Both the position numbers and the translations under genes were made by a program. Below are positions 17,742-55,966 of a stretch of 64,000 nt of DNA, one piece after another. Within the stretch, counting starts at the first letter, position 1. The number at the start of each line of letters is the position of its first letter. The stretch is from NCBI GenBank assembly GCA_964016885.1, contig OZ024742.1, forward strand, positions 267,778,001 through 267,842,000, read 5' to 3'. The stretch comes from Eledone cirrhosa. Taxonomy: Eukaryota. The notes beneath the pieces are model-generated. The model was not told the DNA's origin, made no database searches, and saw nothing but the letters and a program-made list of their open reading frames with translations.

Positions 17742-17842
17742 TGTGTCTGAAGAAATCTGCAGCCGTAGAATCAGCCAGATCCACACAGATCGATACAATG
17801 ATCATGTCTCCAGCTACCTGTCGGCGAAACAATTGTAACACG
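17742..17842 (+). ncRNA. Type I hammerhead ribozyme (family E, long domain II)
   Basis: TGTGT CTGAAGA ...~70 nt... GAA ACAATTGT A ACACG. The homolog at 52128-52220 has a covarying stem I. Confidence 0.7.
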
Positions 17843-17970
17843 ATGCAGCACTGATTTTTCGTTTGTTTATACTATTCACACTCAGCTCTGTAAGATTATT
17901 GAGTGCTAATTTGGCATACCGCCTATGGAAGCACCATATCTACCATTATACACACGTATATATATATATA

Positions 17971-18092
17971 GTGAAGGCGTGTGGCTGAGTGGTTAGAGTA
18001 TTGGATTCACAATCGTGAGGTTGTGAGTTCGATTCCTGAACCAGGCGATGCGTTATGTCCTTGAGCAAGACACTTTATTTCACGTTGCTCCT
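17971..18092 (+). mobile_element. tRNA-derived SINE head (second family)
   Basis: A box tggctgagtgg and B box gagttcgattcc, then gtccttgagcaagacactt typical of tRNA SINE bodies. It follows (TA)n. Confidence 0.8.
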
Positions 18093-18191: not shown

Positions 18192-18256
<65 letters not shown>

Positions 18257-18431
18257 ATTTAGTATATCTACCAACATATGCGTACAGATGTACACTAATG
18301 CTAGCAAATACATAAGTTATGTCATAGTACCTAGGTGGTTCAATGCAGGAGGATGCAGAACAATAATATGAAAGACGTAAAATAAGAAAATTTAAAAAAA
18401 ATTAAAAATTAACTTACTTACTAAAATTTTC

Positions 18432-18513
18432 ACTCCAACTAATTAGTTTCTGTAATGGGATAAAGATAGTTACGTAATATAACCATCGAGAATTCATTAC
18501 GTCATCAGGGAGT
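18432..18513 (-). ncRNA. Type I hammerhead ribozyme (family C)
   Basis: Minus strand reads ACTCC CTGATGA CGTAATG...CATTACA GAA ACTAATTAGT T GGAGT, with a perfect palindromic stem III. Confidence 0.85.
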
Positions 18514-18968
18514 CTATTCTCAGCTAAGTCTCCAGGCAATGCGCGGACACTGGGGACTCATATAAAAATAATAATAATTCGGTGGATGGAACAGCTAGCG
18601 GGGACTGGATTCCATGCACTGAAAAAGTTCGCTGTCTCTGGTCAAATGGCAGATTCCAAAGAATCAATCACGTGACACTGAGGCTAGTTCCGACTAGCCT
18701 CAGTGTCAGGAGTGGGTTGGTAAGATGACAGAAGCCTACTACCACACCAATGAATTAGTAGTGGTTTTGGCAGGTTTGCTCAACAAATAAATAATTTGGA
18801 GATAAATATAGAAAATTTAGTATATCTACCAACATATGCGTACACATGTACACTAATGCTAGCAAATACATAAGTTATGTCATAGTACCTAGGTGGTTCA
18901 ATGCAGGAAGATGCAGAACAATAATATGAAAGACGTAAAATAAGAACATTTTAAAAAGCTCAGAATAG

Positions 18969-19050
18969 ACTCCCTGATGACGTAATGAATTCTCGATGGT
19001 TATATTACGTATCTATCTTTATCCCATTACAGAAACTAACTAGTTGGAGT
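18969..19050 (+). ncRNA. Type I hammerhead ribozyme (family C, inverted copy)
   Basis: ACTCC CTGATGA CGTAATG...CATTACA GAA ACTAACTAGT T GGAGT. Confidence 0.8.
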
Positions 19051-19129
19051 GAAAATATTAGTAAGTTAATTTTTAATTTTTTTTTAATTTTCTTATTTTA
19101 CGTCTTTCATATATATATATATATTTATT

Positions 19130-19212
<83 letters not shown>

Positions 19213-19312
19213 TATATGTCATAGTACCTAGGTAGTTCAATGCAGGAGGATGCAGAACAATAATATGAAAGACGTAAAATAAGAAAAACCACAAACCCTC
19301 CATCTCAACTCA

Positions 19313-19350
19313 CCTTTTGAAAAGCAGAAGAACTGCGAAACCGGTAAAGG
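19313..19350 (+). ncRNA. Minimal type I hammerhead, U3-A8 core variant
   Basis: CCTT TTGAAAA GCAG AAGAA CTGC GAA ACCGGT A AAGG: all three stems are perfect and C3-G8 is replaced by U3-A8. Confidence 0.75.
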
Positions 19351-19419
19351 AACCAAATAAATATATATATTTAAAAAAAAAATAAGACTTCAGTTGCATT
19401 TTCGATTTCATCCCTTTTT

Positions 19420-19630
<211 letters not shown>

Positions 19631-19744: not shown

Positions 19745-21236
19745 TTTTACCTTAGATTTATTTAAATGTCCTTAATTTTCGAGATAATATCTCTTCTTCG
19801 GACGAAGTAAAGCGGTTAAACCAGTGTTCTAAATAGCTTGCCAAGTCATGCTGACAGGAAATGGTATAGAATTATCTGTTCTATCGCTAATGTCAAAGAG
19901 TTAAGGTTAGGTGGATAAAGAGTAGTCTCCCTTTAAATGTTTTTTTGTTGTTGTACATGCCTGTTTAAGTGTGTGGGAGAATGCATGAAGGTGTATGTGA
20001 GTGTGTGTGTGTGAGTGTGAGAAGATATGTCTATACGTAAATGTGGGGGATAGATGTTATCTCGTGTTAGAACTGGTCTTTGTGTGTGTATGTGTGTGTG
20101 TGAGAGAGAATACGTGGAGGTGTAAGCGTGTTGTGCGTGTGGGGGGGGGGGTGTAAACATGGGGCTAGAAGCTCTATAGAGTTATAAATTGTGTGTTGAG
20201 TTCTAGTCTATTGTTGATTGGTGGTTGTGTTTTGTCTATAATCAGTGCTTCCTTAATTCTAAGATTGCAAAGGTTTCTTTCCTTAGTTTCTATCCTAACT
20301 GTTATGGTTTTGACGGTGTTTTTGCATTTAACTAGGTGTTTCTTAAATGAGGAAGAGTTAGTATTGCGGTGTTCTTTTATTCTTATGTGGCGTGGTCTGG
20401 TGGTGCTACCTACGTAGAACTTGCTACATTTGTCACACTCTAGTCTGTATACGACGTAAGCCTGGTGGCATAGGTCTGTGTCGTTGATGGGGCAGTCGGC
20501 TAGCTTGCAGCAGTTGTCATGTCTGGTGGAGTGTCTTTTGGTTAGCTGTCCGCGTAGAGAAGGACCTGAGTGGGCCAGTTGGATATCTAGTCCCTCTCGT
20601 CTGATAGCTCTGCGGATGGCTGTTGTTGTTTCGTCACTGAAGTGTGGGAGCTTCAGGAATCAAGTGTTAGTGCCGCGGGTGTGGTGTCCTCTGTTCTTTC
20701 TGGCACGGTTTGTGGTGGATGTCGTGTATCTGTTCAGTTTGAGTACTTCCAGGAAATGTGTGGTGTGTGTGTCTCGGTCTCTAGCGTCGGTGCATTTGTT
20801 CCGGATACGTCCTAGTTCGTTCCTTTTGTATCCGAACTTAGCGCCGGCTGGGAGGGCCGATCTGAAATGTACGAACAGGTCCCTGCTGGCGGCTTTTTTA
20901 TAGAAGCAGGTGTGGATGTTGCCTTCCTCTGTTACCCTGAGTTGGAAGTCCAGTAGGGATAGGGATCCGCGGTCATCGGCGTGTCCCATGCTGAACTTTA
21001 TACTGGCGTCCATGCTGGAGAATGTTGTGTATATATTATCTGCCCCCTCACGGGATGATGTAAGGATGAGTATGTTATCTACATATCGGGTGAAGAAGGT
21101 ATGGGAATGGCAGGTGCTGAGGGCTCGGCATTCTAGCTGGTTCATATAGGTGATGGCCAGCAGGCCCGATAGGCTGGATCCCATGGGTAATCCTGTTGTC
21201 CGTCTGTATGTGTCGTGGTGGTGGTGGAAGGTGAAG
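19745..21236 (-). pseudogene. 5'-truncated PLE (RT plus GIY-YIG) with 3' UTR and degenerate HHR
   Basis: The ORF 20660..21325 contains GLPMGSSLSGLLA, TRYVDNIL and LSLLDF. Downstream is VVYRLECDKCSKFYVGSTTRP. CCGAAGA-GAGAT/ATCTC-GAAA lies at ~19765-19805. Both ends are near (TA)n. Confidence 0.85.
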
Positions 21237-21261
21237 TATATATATATATATATAAGAATTA

Positions 21262-21299
<38 letters not shown>

Positions 21300-21301
<2 letters not shown>

Positions 21302-22125
21302 GAAAAAAATGAAACGAAATTTCATTTCTCACACTTAGTACGGCTGTTACTTAAATATAAGTATGTATACGTACATACATATATGTATACAGTCGCACAG
21401 TATTATGTATATATATATATACATACATGCACACATATATATATATGTACGTATGGATTCAACGAACATTTATGATAATGCTCGGTGTGTTTTTAAACAA
21501 ACATCCCGAATTAAGCCGTACAGTGTCTAGCAACCATCGTTGTTCATTTGTTCAACACTGCCAAATGAAAGATGTACTAGTTTCAAGCTTATTAGCTATC
21601 GTCAGCAACGTATACCTACTTGCCAGATGATGGAACGTCTGAAAGTATATACTTGCCTTATGCATATTAACGGCTGAGCCATACGTACATATATATATAT
21701 GTGCATGTATGTATATATATATATAGATACTACTGTGCGTCTGTATACATATATGTATGTACGTATACATACTTATATTTAAGTAACAGCCGTACTAAAA
21801 GTGAGAAATTAAATTTCTTTTCATTTTTTCCGTTTATCGTTTTCGATGCCCCCGCCGATTAACTCACTCAGTATTCAAATTAGGCTGCTCAGCCGTTAAT
21901 ATGCATAAGGAAAGTATATACTTTCAGACGTTCAATCATCTGGCAGGAAGGTATACGTTGCTGACAATAGCTAATAAGCTTGAAACTAGTACAGCGTTCC
22001 TTTGTCAGTGTTGAACAAATGAGCAACGATGGTTGCTAGATACTGTAAGGCTTAATTCGGGATGTTTGTTTATAATAACACCGAGCATTATAATAAATAT
22101 TCGGTTAATCCATACGTACATATAT
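21300..22125. mobile_element. Retrozyme-like non-coding element (family B) in inverted configuration
   Basis: 21300-21680 is followed by an inverted copy of more than one monomer (ccatacgtacatatat at 21679 and 22110, ~430 bp period). HHRs lie at 21570-21610(-) and 21955-21997(+, G8A). It is flanked by (TA)n. Confidence 0.8.
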
Positions 22126-22130
22126 ATATG

Positions 22131-22191
<61 letters not shown>

Positions 22192-36703: not shown

Positions 36704-37924
36704 CTACATTTTAAATTTAAATTTATATTTAAACGTTGAGTTTAATCTATGTTTGCAACAACTGAATAAATTTGTCCGTAGATTAAGGGAATTTTTAGAT
36801 TTTAGTATAAAGAATATCTCCTCCGCGCAGAGGTCACATGTCTCAGAGGATGAATTAAAAGGAATCCCTCTTGAGACTATATTCCAAGCCGTCGAATATC
36901 TAACGTTATCTAGCTTAAGTTGCCAGAGTACGCCTGATAGTGCCGTTGAAGATTTTTTGCTTGGATCTGTGAAAGAATTCTTGTGGTTATTATAGCGAAG
37001 TTTAAATTCCGTCGATGTGGAACCGACGTAGTTAAAAGAATTAGAGTCAGTATTAACATTACAATTGTATACTATATTTTTAACTAAGCAGTTGTTATTT
37101 AACGGACATTTAGATCTATCTCTACAGTTACATTTGTTAACTTGTATATTATTTATGCTATTATCACTAGGTTTTAAGTTCCTATTATTTATTCTATTAA
37201 TATTTTGTGCTAAATTTTTGGTGGATGAGTATGTTAATTTTATTGTATGTCTATTGAAAATTGAGTGATACCTATGTGTTCTAGGGAAGCGATTATCAAG
37301 AGCTTTGAAAAATAGTTTAGCGATGTGGGTTTTAATGTTTAGTGAGAAAGGGGGGGCAAACCAAATTATGTTCCTAGTTCTATTTCTTTTTTGGCCTTTG
37401 GAATTATTGTAATGCTTTCTATTATAGTTGTTAAGATTGTTGCCGTAATTAAAAAAGTTGTTACTTTGTTTAGTTTGTCTTTCATTATCTATGTACACAA
37501 TCTTATCAGCATATCCTGCTCTAGCTAATGCTTCATTATAGTATTGGGCTTTTTCGTCGAAAATCTTTCTATTCGACGAGATCCTAGAGATACGTTTTTG
37601 AACAGAGTTTACTATAGTGTTTTTGACAGATCTGGGGTGGTTAGAGTTAAAGTTGACATAGTTTAAGTTTTCATTCAACTTGTGAAAAGGATAGTGAAGA
37701 CATGTGTTGAGATTTAATGTTATATCTAGGAAATTGACTATTCTATGTTTGTTCTCAATTTCTATTTTAAGATTAAAGTAATTAAAAAATTGTGTAATTT
37801 GTTTACATTTTCTATTTAGTTCAGGGTTATTATTATCAATAAGTAAAAGCATGTCGTCTCTATATAAACCTCCGGTAGTACCGGGTATTTTCCTATGTAG
37901 CGAATTGATTAAAAATAAGCCCAC
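36704..37924 (-). CDS. PLE RT C-terminal half, Cys linker and GIY-YIG endonuclease (uninterrupted 406 aa, 5'-truncated)
   Basis: [42 protein letters not shown]...[16 protein letters not shown] and CDLCAEE. Confidence 0.9.
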
Positions 37925-37947
37925 AAGGTCAGTTACCTGAGCTGAGT

Positions 37948-38065
<118 letters not shown>

Positions 38066-38097
38066 CGCGCGCGTATATATATATATATGAATATATA

Positions 38098-38141
<44 letters not shown>

Positions 38142-43261: not shown

Positions 43262-44746
43262 ATAATAATAAAATTGAAGACTAAAATCCAAAGAGGGCTC
43301 GATAAGGAAAATATATATCAAATATATAAGAACCGTAGAGCAAATATTTATTAAAATAACAGATTAAAGTTTAAGCAAAGAATCGCTGCTTTCACCCTTA
43401 ACGGGATCTTCTGAAACTAACAAAGTCAATCTGTAATACGTCATTAATAGAAGCGGTGAAAAACAATTACGCGCAAAGACAAAACCACGTTTATGGTATA
43501 AAAGAGGTCGTAGACTAATGTTCTCTAAGGTGGTGCATAGAGACGTTCTCTGGCAATGAACGAAAAAACGAAGATAATAAGTCATATGTGGAGGGTGGAG
43601 AACAATAGCACGCAAAGACAAAACCACGTAAATGGTATAGCAGAAATCGTAGACTAAAATTCTAACTAGGAAACCAAATGAATCTCCGCTACAGAGTTAA
43701 GAACAAAGTAAATAAATACAATACAGTAGTAATAGAAACAAATAAATACATACACGCAAACAGATACGTACATACACAAGCATACGCAAAACCTTACCAT
43801 GGTTATACAAAACCACGCACATATAAATATGTGTGTGTATGTATGCGTGTATACAAATAAATAAATAATTATATAAACGTATATAAGTAAATAAATACGT
43901 ATATAACAAGCGCACAGGCATACCTACATATAAATACACGAAAGTTCGGAGACGTAAGTCAACTAAAACAAGAAGTACACATATACACACACCCACCATA
44001 CGTACGAACCTGCTCACTCACGCGGACACAAAACTCCCGTATACACATAGCCAAACCCTAAAAACCAGAATATGTAAAAATTATACGCTATAACAGTCAA
44101 ATATACGTACGAGAAAGTATACATACCTTCACAGAACATACGGGTAATATATACTTACCTATGCAAATAAGTAAAGGAATAAACAAACATATACTTAGCT
44201 CCCACATCAAGACGTAAAATATCCACGTATAGATCGTGCTATCCGTTAGGGTATAACGTGGGGCTGTAATACAGGAAAGTTTTGTGCAATTTATGTTTAC
44301 AAGCCGAAATTGCCTCAGATTTTTTGTTTGAGATGTGGTTTGTAGCGTAGAGTATTTCCAGGGCCTCAGCGGCGCAGAGGTCACATGGTCTTTTATTTCC
44401 GTTATACGATCTAGCCCTAGCTAGGATCTCCCAGTGTAACTTATATTGGGTGTGGTTGTCTTTTAGACTCCAGATATAAGCTGAAAGTGACGTCATGTTC
44501 CTTCTTAGAGGGTAACGAAAAGAATGGGTATGCATGTAAAGACGCTGCTTGAAACTATTGGCCGTTAACCCTATGTAGGCCCTACGGGAGGTGGGTGTTA
44601 CAACCTTCGTCTTCCTGTCTTCCTCCGGTTGCAACGTTTTTTGAAATATCCAGTTCTGCGTTTACAGATTGACTTTGTTAGTTTCAGAAGATCCCGTTAA
44701 GGATGAAAGCAGCGATTCTTTGCTTAAACTTTAATCTGTTATTTTA

Positions 44747-54317: not shown

Positions 54318-55966
54318 TCACATCTGATCTCAACATCCTGGACCGGACCGAACCTCTGGACCCTATCTCTCCCCACTTTATCCTGAAGGATCACAAATCC
54401 AATTTTCCGAACAACCCGGCTTATTAACCCTACGAAGTCCGATTTAGGTAGACTTAGTAAAACGATTCTTGATAGAATTATACCTGAAATTAGAAGTTTG
54501 GCCCCTCTCGCACTGTGGAACAATTCTTTCGCGGTCATTGATTGGTTCAACGGCATATGTAACAAGGAACATTGCCGTTTTATCCAATTTGACATCAACA
54601 ATTACTACTCCTCCATCACTTTACCACTTCTCCTTAGAGCTATCAATTTCGCTAAAACACTCACAGTGGTTAAGGATTTTGAAGTTGATGTCATCCTTAA
54701 TGCCCGAAAGTCGGTGATTAATTTCGACGACTTTATTTGGATTAAAAAATCCAATAGTACCCCATTCGACGTGAGTATGGGCGCCAGTGACTCTGCAGAG
54801 GTCACTGATCTTATTGGCCTTTTCCTTCTTTTCTCTATCAAGGACGAATTCCCCAACGCGGGCGGTGGTTGTACCGTGACGATGGTCTTTTGACCATGTC
54901 TAAGTGCGGACCTCGTGCTTGCGACAGGTTCAGAAAAGAACTCACAGCCTTCTTTAAAGGCTTCAACCTCTCTATACAGGTTGAGGCCAATCTCTCGGTC
55001 GTTAATTACCTCGACGTTACCCTCAATTTATTGAATGGGTTGTATTACCCGTATAGAAAGCCGGATGATACGCTTAATTACATAAGTAAGCATTCCAACC
55101 ATCCTGCCAGCATAACCAAGAACCTGGTAAGAAACGTTTCATTGAGGCTTTCCCGTCTTTCCACCAACGAGCGCATTTTCAACGACCATTCCACTTATTA
55201 CAATGAAGCTCTTGCTCGAAGTGGATTTGTCGATAAGGTAGCATATACAGAGTACGAAAATAGACCTAGAAGAAATAGATCCCGTTGCATTTGTTGGTTT
55301 AACCCACCATATAATATGGAGGTGGCCACACCATTAGCTAAGATCTTACTTTCCCTTATTACGAAGCATTTTCCCCCTACACATAAATATAGTAAAATTT
55401 TTAATAGAAATACTATTAAAATTTCTTACTCTACGACTCCTAACCTTGCACATAACATCACAGCTTCAAATTTAGCTAAACTACCTTGCCGTCGGAACAC
55501 GTGCAACCCTGTAGTTAGTACTAACTGTAATTGTAGGAATCGGGCTGATTGCCCCCTATCCGGGAAATGCCTCTCTAGTAACCTTGTCTACAAATGTAAG
55601 GTTGTAACACCCACGTCCCGTAGGGCCTACATAGGGTTAACCGCCAATAGTTTCAAGCAGCGTCTTTACATGCATACCCTTTCTTTTCGTTACCCTCTAA
55701 GAAGGAATATGACGTCACTTTCAGCTTATATCTGGAGTCTAAAAAACAACCACACCCAATATAAGTTACACTGGGAGATCCTAGCTAGGGCTAGATCGTA
55801 TAACGGAAATAAAAGACCATGTGACCTCTGCGCCGCTGAGGCCCTGGAAATACTCTACGCTACAGACCACATCTTAAACAAAAAATCTGAGGCAATTTCG
55901 GCTTGTAAACATAAATTGCACAAAACTTTCCTGTATTACAGCCCCACGTTATACCCTAACGGATAG
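54318..55966 (+). pseudogene. PLE RT plus GIY-YIG ORF with two frameshifts (~54417, ~54869)
   Basis: LKDHK, LINPTKS, FIQFDINNYY, FDVSMGASDSAE, YRDDGL, WFNPPY, CNCRNRADCPLSGKC, LVY...YIG and CDLCAAE. Confidence 0.92.

What the first reader, a model, noticed from the sequence alone, without database searches (positions are those of the whole stretch)
18254..19110. Family C: ~557-bp HHR monomer with a perfect 16-bp hairpin
Seen: a direct repeat ~557 bp apart, an intact HHR (18432-18513, minus) with the perfect palindrome AACTAATTAGTT, and an inverted arm that begins just upstream of the ribozyme. The monomer also has a perfect stem TGACACTGAGGCTAGT-TCCG-ACTAGCCTCAGTGTCA (18674-18709). It is unrelated in sequence to family B. 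Inference: a second, independent retrozyme-like family, with the hairpin possibly serving as an RT-recognition or stability element.
Basis: partly seen in the sequence, partly recalled or inferred. Interest (0 to 1): 0.72.

Follow-up and report, generated by a model that had tools for sequence, protein, structure and literature searches.

The report
Hammerhead retrozyme; hairpin is private mutation
This is one copy of a very abundant protein-free repeat with a predicted self-cutting RNA motif, likely moved by Penelope-type retrotransposon enzymes; the perfect hairpin that drew attention is found in this copy alone and likely arose as a one-off copying error, so the element is a new member of a known kind.

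Summary
The direct repeat (558 bp apart), hammerhead, inverted arm and 16-bp stem are all in the sequence. The hairpin is not a family feature: its junction occurs once in the 3.0-Gb genome against 226 matches of the plain form. It is an exact 21-nt inverted copy replacing 6 nt. The family unit is about 545 nt and non-coding; 12,089 places match the hammerhead's 3' half, and helix II covaries. Copies sit in (TA)n as head-to-head arms ending at two fixed sites 113 nt apart, one per arm in 74 of 75 clean pairs. An autonomous Penelope-like element here does the same (8 of 10 clean). At 20 places both arms start at the predicted ribozyme cut (controls 3, 0, 10), likely a trace of cleavage in the cell. 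Verdict: a non-LTR retrozyme likely moved by a Penelope-like enzyme. No parent element or RNA evidence was found. The scan had already noted both footprints on other DNA, including this genome.

The parts
18254..18811 (-). Full unit (558 nt here; family about 545 nt). Its 3' end is fixed end B, running into a (CT)n/(TA)n tract
   Evidence: differs from the family majority at 2 substitutions outside the hairpin insert
18811..18957 (-). 5'-truncated upstream unit (family positions 399-545) forming the direct repeat, a pseudo-LTR-like partial tandem
   Evidence: 140 of 144 identical to 18256-18399
18957..19112 (+). Inverted arm (family positions 272-432) ending at fixed end A, followed by (TA)n
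   Evidence: 94% to the main unit over 160 nt; arm-pair analysis
18432..18513 (-). Type I hammerhead of the minimal Penelope type: helix I 5 bp, helix II 6 bp with a C.A mismatch at its base plus a 9-bp inner hairpin (18465-18487), GUU cut site between 18437 and 18436
   Evidence: cleavage predicted, not assayed
18437..18448 (-). Perfect 12-nt palindrome of helix III, predicted to pair between two ribozymes (dimeric cleavage)
   Evidence: no fold as a monomer, -9.0 kcal/mol as a duplex; minor-allele frequency 2.6% or less at each base of helix III
18673..18708 (.). Perfect 16-bp hairpin, private to this copy: a 21-nt inverted copy (18688-18708) replacing 6 nt
18263..18312 (-). Conserved terminal hairpin (15+6 bp, 4-nt loop) ending about 9 nt before fixed end B; second copy at 18821-18870; candidate RT-positioning signal
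   Evidence: 92.7% of cells paired, 3 pairs with double changes, in 17 units; function inferred
18377..18421 (-). Conserved stem with a variable A/U-run apex, ending about 9 nt before fixed end A (site A near 18366-18368, read through here)
   Evidence: alignment, fold; covariation not counted
18969..19050 (+). Second hammerhead in the inverted arm; helix III palindrome and inner hairpin mutated
18557..18676 (-). Possible internal promoter: E-box-like motif (18662-18676) and TATA-like run (18557-18567) upstream of the ribozyme
   Evidence: largely conserved in 12 units of 66-98% identity; motif labels recalled; untested
19207..19287 (-). Separate short family fragment (window-unit positions about 421-493) fused to another repeat

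Best explanation
This is a young copy of a protein-free, roughly 545-nt hammerhead-bearing repeat (a non-LTR retrozyme) that is likely mobilised in trans by a Penelope-like reverse transcriptase/endonuclease, and its perfect 16-bp hairpin is private to this copy and likely came from one template-switch error. Mechanism, step by step. (1) Tandem copies are transcribed, probably from an internal promoter (inferred). (2) The ribozyme, probably acting as a dimer through its palindromic helix III, cuts some junctions and leaves others, giving RNAs with a cut 5' end and uncut multimers or ligated circles (inferred from junctions). (3) The enzyme cuts both strands of a (TA)n tract (target shown, cutting inferred). 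(4) Each DNA end primes reverse transcription at its own fixed site, A or B, which lie 72 and 185 nt after the cut site and about 9 nt past a conserved hairpin (ends shown, priming inferred). (5) The two cDNAs run for variable lengths, sometimes more than one unit, sometimes to the RNA's cut end, and are joined head to head (structure shown). The window copy is a B arm of 1.27 units joined to a 160-nt A arm.
For: Hairpin private. Abundance: 12,089 exact matches to the hammerhead 3' half, control 0; subfamilies 66-98% identical with units of 520-560 nt. Ribozyme structure kept: 94.7% of cells paired, 43 double changes vs 13.7 +/- 2.8 shuffled, one helix II pair seen as UA/CG/GC/AU in 19 sequences; the same pair reads TA 105, CG 20, GC 2 with no mismatched class among regex matches in 94 loci. 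Non-coding: longest ATG frame 28-91 residues and unconserved in 12 units; 0 tblastn hits at E <= 1 from 20 PLE frames. Two fixed ends: 89 of 95 free 3' ends at A or B in 55 loci, 80 of those 89 passing the microsatellite filter. One A plus one B arm in 74 of 75 clean inverted pairs (31; 24; 12+6+1; 1 BB, 0 AA). An autonomous PLE in the same genome shows the same rule in 8 of 10 pairs, a ninth A-like/B, one incomplete. Cut-site footprint: 8 of 68 5' ends in a preset window vs 2.3 expected, P = 0.0026; 20 fold-back junctions at the cut vs 3, 0 and 10 at controls; 8 of 15 fetched loci have exactly the cut-to-A and cut-to-B arms. Read-through junctions carry no insertions in about 190 pieces. Partial tandems, inverted copies, a tail at one end only and (TA)n targets are PLE hallmarks (PMC8557442 passages); two internal RT starts were shown for a PLE in vitro (PMC11167929).
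Against: No autonomous partner found: the pLTRs of two active PLE families and four window PLE UTRs do not match the unit. Cleavage, circles and transcription are not shown. The unit is longer than the 150-450 bp of PMC7229834 and the ribozyme is the minimal, not canonical, type. The minimum-energy fold of the window hammerhead is an inactive form, 2.5 kcal/mol more stable than the active one. 11 inverted pairs had a truncated arm and were set aside. One downstream control gave 10 fold-backs, half the cut-site count, and 5' ends also cluster at +7 to +11 where a palindromic A/T run offers microhomology. In PAc, cleavage was dispensable in vitro and no RNA-seq read ended at the cut. Li et al. 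saw cleavage in only 1 of 9 retrozyme dimers.
Confidence: 0.8

Rival explanations
1. One reading: the perfect 16-bp hairpin is a functional RT-recognition or stability element of the family.
For: The stem is real and very stable.
Against: 1 genome-wide hit vs 226 for the plain form; 1 of 135 covering pieces; absent from 11 other units across subfamilies; explained exactly by one 21-nt inverted copy. No descendant copy carries it.
Confidence: 0.02
2. Same element and enzyme, but templates are only circles or uncut transcripts; 5' ends near the ribozyme are places where the RT stalls at the folded hammerhead or finds microhomology, not cut ends.
For: Seamless read-through junctions; most arms pass or stop away from the cut; cluster at +7 to +11; 10 fold-backs at a downstream control; several cut-site arms start 1-2 nt before the cut, at the foot of helix III; PAc data.
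Against: Both arms of one insertion start within about 2 nt of the cut in 19 of 20 listed junctions, mostly blunt or with 1-2 filler bases; longer stems in the unit are read through; upstream controls give 3 and 0.
Confidence: 0.25
3. The copies are 5'-truncated pseudo-LTR remnants of an autonomous Penelope-like element, not a self-standing non-coding unit.
For: Architecture and minimal hammerhead are those of PLE pLTRs; only two active PLE families were examined.
Against: Unit position 1 is preceded by the unit's own end in 72 of 79 and 38 of 44 cases; the 7 exceptions are inversion junctions, a very short unit end or a fusion to family B, none an ORF; arrays with up to 6 ribozyme-bearing pieces lack an ORF; no coding remnant.
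Confidence: 0.07
4. The hairpin is an assembly or sequencing artefact (fold-back) rather than a real mutation.
For: Seen once only; contigs from four public runs show only plain forms at this site and no strand-changing joint.
Against: Those contigs are short, collapse thousands of copies and drop rare variants; the lesion has the clean form of a short-range template switch, a known source of perfect hairpins (PMC10710096 abstract).
Confidence: 0.1
5. A satellite, MITE or Helitron-type repeat spread at the DNA level, with the ribozyme as a passenger.
For: Some tandem arrays of 5-6 units or more exist.
Against: Fixed 3' ends with variable 5' ends, dispersed copies, arms of unequal length, RNA-structure covariation and cut-site junctions all point to an RNA intermediate.
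Confidence: 0.02

Closest known systems
Metazoan non-LTR retrozymes (Cervera and de la Pena 2020, PMC7229834, parts 2-3 of 6 read; Li, Clavereau and Pollet 2026, bioRxiv 10.64898/2026.07.22.740005, parts 1-3 of 5 read)
   Same: Non-coding, low-GC tandem units each with a type I hammerhead; thousands of copies; co-occurs with PLEs; the axolotl HHR_Amex2 also has a mismatch at the base of helix II.
   Different: Unit 520-560 nt (150-450 in the 2020 paper, 51-972 in the preprint); minimal-type ribozyme with a long interrupted helix II; mostly 1-2 units with an inverted arm; circles and cleavage not shown; no parent pLTR found; the preprint sampled no mollusc.
EN+ Penelope-like elements, e.g. PAc (Poseidon) of Anolis (PMC11167929, parts 1-2 of 4 read; PMC8557442, passages; PMC4209133, part 1 of 4)
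   Same: Partial tandems, inverted 5'-truncated copy, extension at one end only, AT-rich targets, minimal hammerhead upstream of two internal RT start sites.
   Different: No ORF; the 'tail' is 113 nt instead of 30-40; starts fall on short TA/CT-like sequence next to the target, whereas PAc starts at a site not homologous to the cut DNA; here junctions at the ribozyme cut are enriched, whereas PAc work found no reads ending there.
Non-autonomous Chlamys PLEs such as MRC1 (PMC8557442, passage)
   Same: Non-coding PLE passengers with pLTRs and multicopy head-to-tail insertions.
   Different: Those usually share 3'-end sequence with an autonomous family and belong to clades described as lacking canonical hammerheads.
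Short-range template-switch mutations (PMC10710096 abstract; PMC5453318 and PMC8794818 search listing only)
   Same: One event inserts a reverse-complement copy of adjacent sequence and creates a perfect hairpin.
   Different: Here it cannot be told whether DNA replication or the PLE reverse transcriptase made the switch.

Membership tests
Metazoan non-LTR retrozymes | Tandem units each carrying a type I hammerhead | tested here: met
   Two or more same-strand ribozyme-bearing pieces in 20 of 55 and 8 of 39 loci, up to 6; core intact in 132 of 164 spanning pieces. The window copy itself has only one sense ribozyme, so it is not 'active' by the preprint's rule.
Metazoan non-LTR retrozymes | No protein coding, no LTR/PBS/PPT, GC under 50% | tested here: met
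   Longest ATG frame 28-91 aa, unconserved; 0 tblastn hits from 20 PLE frames; GC 34-37% in 6 units. PBS and PPT were not searched for separately.
Metazoan non-LTR retrozymes | Unit length of a few hundred bases | tested here: met
   520-560 nt in 12 units: above the 150-450 of PMC7229834, inside the 51-972 of the preprint.
Metazoan non-LTR retrozymes | Hammerhead secondary structure under selection | tested here: met
   helix I 100%, helix II 98% paired with double changes. Helix III and the 3' strand of helix I were fixed by the search pattern for 17 of 19 rows, so their invariance there is not evidence.
Metazoan non-LTR retrozymes | Canonical loop 1-loop 2 tertiary contacts | tested here: inconclusive
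   Helix sizes fit the minimal PLE-type motif of PMC4209133; contacts were not modelled. Mussel retrozymes also lack most of these nucleotides.
Metazoan non-LTR retrozymes | RNA self-cleavage | not testable with these tools
   Indirect only: junctions at the predicted cut.
Metazoan non-LTR retrozymes | Accumulation as circular RNA | not testable with these tools
   Needs RNA data; see Tried and rejected. Circular folds are more stable than shuffles (z -3.8 to -8.7 in 6 units, 20 shuffles each).
PLE-mobilised elements | Partial tandem plus inverted 5'-truncated copy | tested here: met
   Both orientations in 36 of 55 and 26 of 39 loci.
PLE-mobilised elements | [quoted passage not shown] | tested here: met
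   74 of 75 clean pairs; autonomous control 8 of 10 clean.
PLE-mobilised elements | Insertion into (TA)n or AT-rich targets | tested here: met
   80 of 89 A/B ends pass the microsatellite filter and most others begin with short TA runs. Target duplications cannot be read inside such tracts.
PLE-mobilised elements | Sequence shared with the pLTR of an autonomous partner | tested here: inconclusive
   No match in two active families or four window UTRs; other PLE families of the genome were not examined.
Autonomous PLE | ORF with RT and GIY-YIG endonuclease | tested here: not met
   position 1 follows the unit's own end in 110 of 123 cases.

The most novel reading that the evidence does not exclude
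The genome holds a fossil record of the retrozyme life cycle: the hammerhead cuts in the cell, and a Penelope enzyme dimer grips two conserved hairpins 113 nt apart on one RNA, primes both DNA strands and runs both copies off the ribozyme-made 5' end. That would show that cleaved linear RNA, not only circles or uncut transcripts, is a real template for Penelope-type retrotransposition, contrary to the in vitro picture for PAc.
Probability: 0.55. Interest if true: 0.6.

Novelty: new member of a known kind. Interest (0 to 1): 0.38.

Why it matters
The headline feature is a private mutation and matters only as a clean example of a template switch. The family matters modestly. Retrozyme mobilisation by Penelope-like elements is proposed in print but not shown, and the role of the ribozyme in these elements is open. 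A non-coding 545-nt unit with two mapped start sites, a covarying hairpin beside one of them and junctions at the predicted cut gives a small, exact substrate for testing both questions. Seven paper searches listed no paper whose title or abstract start describes cephalopod retrozymes or genomic junctions at the hammerhead cut; the library lacks most subscription papers and supplements were not read.

Tried and rejected
Rfam scan of the window: 0 matches. Search for RNA runs: no RNA holder listed; this says nothing about expression. Laying contigs of four runs of unrecorded kind (one study): only plain forms at the hairpin site, no piece spans the locus, uninformative on whether the hairpin is real. 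Parent search: the 775-aa family and the 758-aa family have their own, different hammerheads and no profile match to the unit; four window PLE UTRs also gave none. The first tblastn gave hits only from frames reading through the unit itself and was redone with 20 curated PLE frames (no hits). Pfam recognised 2 of 9 PLE frames, so a family-wide parent search was not attempted. Homology to family B: none. First classing of autonomous-PLE ends failed because the fetched stretches clipped the anchor; redone. In one search a widened window scored L111 as AA and L128 as AB; both have a truncated arm and were dropped from the clean count. The 5'-end pile-up (18 of 162 in -4..+11) used a window chosen after seeing the data; only one search is a test. 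Target-site duplications could not be read in microsatellites. Look-ups of earlier notes by sequence and by place returned nothing.

Full report
Observation. All described features are present. On the minus strand a full 558-nt unit (18811 to 18254) is preceded by a 5'-truncated copy of its own 3' end (18957 to 18811; 140 of 144 bases identical). That copy is joined head to head to an inverted arm (18957-19112, +). Both outer ends run into (TA)n or (CT)n tracts. A type I hammerhead lies at 18432-18513 with a predicted cut between 18437 and 18436 and a perfect 12-nt palindrome in helix III. The 16-bp stem is at 18673-18708 (z -7 to -8). Rfam finds nothing. The genome is 3.0 Gb in 1796 contigs; that it is a cephalopod is my inference from size and repeat content, and no call names it.

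The hairpin is private. A genome search with the unit returned 2303 candidates, of which 40 were scored; the other full-length hits were about 15 nt shorter. Of 38 aligned units only the window's has the stem. The hairpin junction has 1 exact match in the genome, the plain form 226. In 94 loci, 135 pieces cover the site, and the only perfect stem of 13 bp or more in any piece is the window's. The 21 bases that make the left arm are the exact reverse complement of the family's next 21 bases, after which the sequence resumes 6 bases on. This is the form of a short-range template switch, known to create perfect hairpins in one step (PMC10710096, abstract). Whether replication or the reverse transcriptase made it cannot be told, and an assembly artefact is not excluded.

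The family. The 19-mer covering the hammerhead's 3' half has 12,089 exact matches, control 0; these are pieces, not insertions. The window's subfamily averages 98.5% identity to its majority. Twelve units from several subfamilies are 520-560 nt and 66-98% identical. They do not code. Position 1 follows the unit's own end in 72 of 79 and 38 of 44 cases, so the unit is self-contained and not the tail of a longer ORF-bearing element.

Conserved structure. In 19 hammerheads 94.7% of cells pair, with 43 double changes against 13.7 in shuffles; sliding the partners drops pairing to 35-46%. Helix III and part of helix I were fixed by the pattern that selected most rows, so the evidence rests on helix II and its inner hairpin. 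Helix sizes match the minimal hammerheads of PLE pseudo-LTRs (PMC4209133, part 1). Helix III does not fold alone but gives a -9.0 kcal/mol duplex, which suggests dimeric cleavage; the lowest-energy fold of the monomer is inactive by 2.5 kcal/mol. A terminal hairpin (18263-18312) is conserved with three double-change pairs in 17 units; this signal is weaker (180 of 500 shuffles reach three such pairs, 0 of 500 reach the 15 double-change cells). A second stem precedes the other fixed end. These, not the private stem, are the candidates for RT positioning.

Insertion footprint. Free 3' ends fall at two sites, A (family position 432) and B (545), in 89 of 95 cases. In head-to-head copies one arm ends at A and the other at B: 31 of 35 (4 truncated; 1 further locus arranged otherwise), 24 of 26 (2 truncated), 12 of 15 in a sister subfamily (1 BB, 2 truncated), 6 of 7 and 1 of 3 in the unselected sample (3 truncated). 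That is 74 of 75 clean pairs, with 11 set aside. A young autonomous PLE in the same genome has ends 156 and 217 nt after its own hammerhead and obeys the rule in 8 of 10 pairs, with one more A-like/B and one incomplete. [quoted passage not shown] Here the tail is 113 nt.

Trace of cleavage. 5' ends looked enriched at -4 to +11 of the predicted cut (18 of 162, post hoc). In 39 new loci that preset window held 8 of 68 against 2.3 expected (P = 0.0026). Fold-back junctions in which both arms start at the cut number 20 (19 after merging one likely duplicate) against 3 and 0 at two upstream controls and 10 at a downstream control (19 of 32 at one in four, P = 4e-5). Of 15 such loci fetched, 8 have just the cut-to-A and cut-to-B arms, 5 add whole units, 1 duplicates another and 1 switches into family B. 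Read-through junctions show no insertions in about 190 pieces, so longer arms likely came from uncut multimers or precisely ligated circles. Against this reading: the downstream control is high, ends also gather at +7 to +11 on a palindromic A/T run, some arms start 1-2 nt before the cut where a stall at helix III could also stop the enzyme, and PAc cleavage was dispensable in vitro.

What was not found. No parent: two active PLE families and four window PLE UTRs have unrelated pLTRs. Family B is not homologous but fuses with family C in L064 and L264, which could be nested insertion or template switching. Transcription, cleavage and circles remain untested.

Comparison and novelty. It works like a Penelope-like element without its ORF and meets the testable criteria of metazoan non-LTR retrozymes (PMC7229834, parts 2-3; bioRxiv 10.64898/2026.07.22.740005, parts 1-3), which the preprint already proposes are non-autonomous PLE derivatives. 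The Octopus vulgaris repeat paper has no occurrence of 'ribozyme' in its main text (PMC13282606, passages); the giant squid paper counts 235 hammerhead matches without describing them (PMC6962438, passages). Earlier notes of this scan report the same two-site rule and cut-site marks in other families and in this genome, and two disagree on cleavage. My A/B counts preceded, and the cut-site tests preceded. Verdict: new member of a known kind; hairpin claim refuted; interest 0.38.

Noticed in passing
window 19207-19420 (-); also L033, L212: A third family fragment is fused to a different short repeat (19288-19420) that recurs elsewhere; it shares a motif with the repeat at 21296-21444.
   Followed up: no
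window 21296-22162: Family B: hammerhead with a U.U mismatch at the base of helix II and a palindromic helix III, same inverted layout in TA tracts; no homology to family C.
   Followed up: partly
L064 about 4537; L264 about 1514-1540: Family B/C fusions. In L264 one arm starts at family C's cut site and passes into family B after about 20 nt through a short shared motif.
   Followed up: partly
L161 (G000:C1:147233000-147242999): Very young autonomous PLE: a 775-aa RT/endonuclease frame plus an overlapping upstream 476-aa frame, 4.2-kb tandem period, dozens of near-identical copies among 150 scored. Two frames are unusual for a PLE (recalled).
   Followed up: partly
L164-L193: Second active PLE family (758-aa frame) with CCAAT-like and TATA-like motifs directly before its hammerhead and start codon.
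   Followed up: partly
window 20174-21328 (-), 36704-38098 (-), 44239-44661 (-), 54387-55966 (+): Several broken PLE ORFs; Pfam finds RVT_1 and GIY-YIG in the first.
   Followed up: partly
window 17747-17840 and about 52134 (+): Two hammerhead-like motifs of another family with a long helix II region and a palindromic helix III.
   Followed up: no
window about 17970-18070 (+): tRNA-like SINE head just left of the insertion (seen by eye; no tRNA scan run).
   Followed up: no
G000:C5:11373893-11379641 (L084, L090-L096): Head-to-tail array of about 11 units of the 523-nt sister subfamily; a possible source locus for multimeric RNA.
   Followed up: no
L102, L107, L253, L266: The apex of the stem before end A expands as matched runs of A and T, keeping the hairpin while its length changes.
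   Followed up: partly
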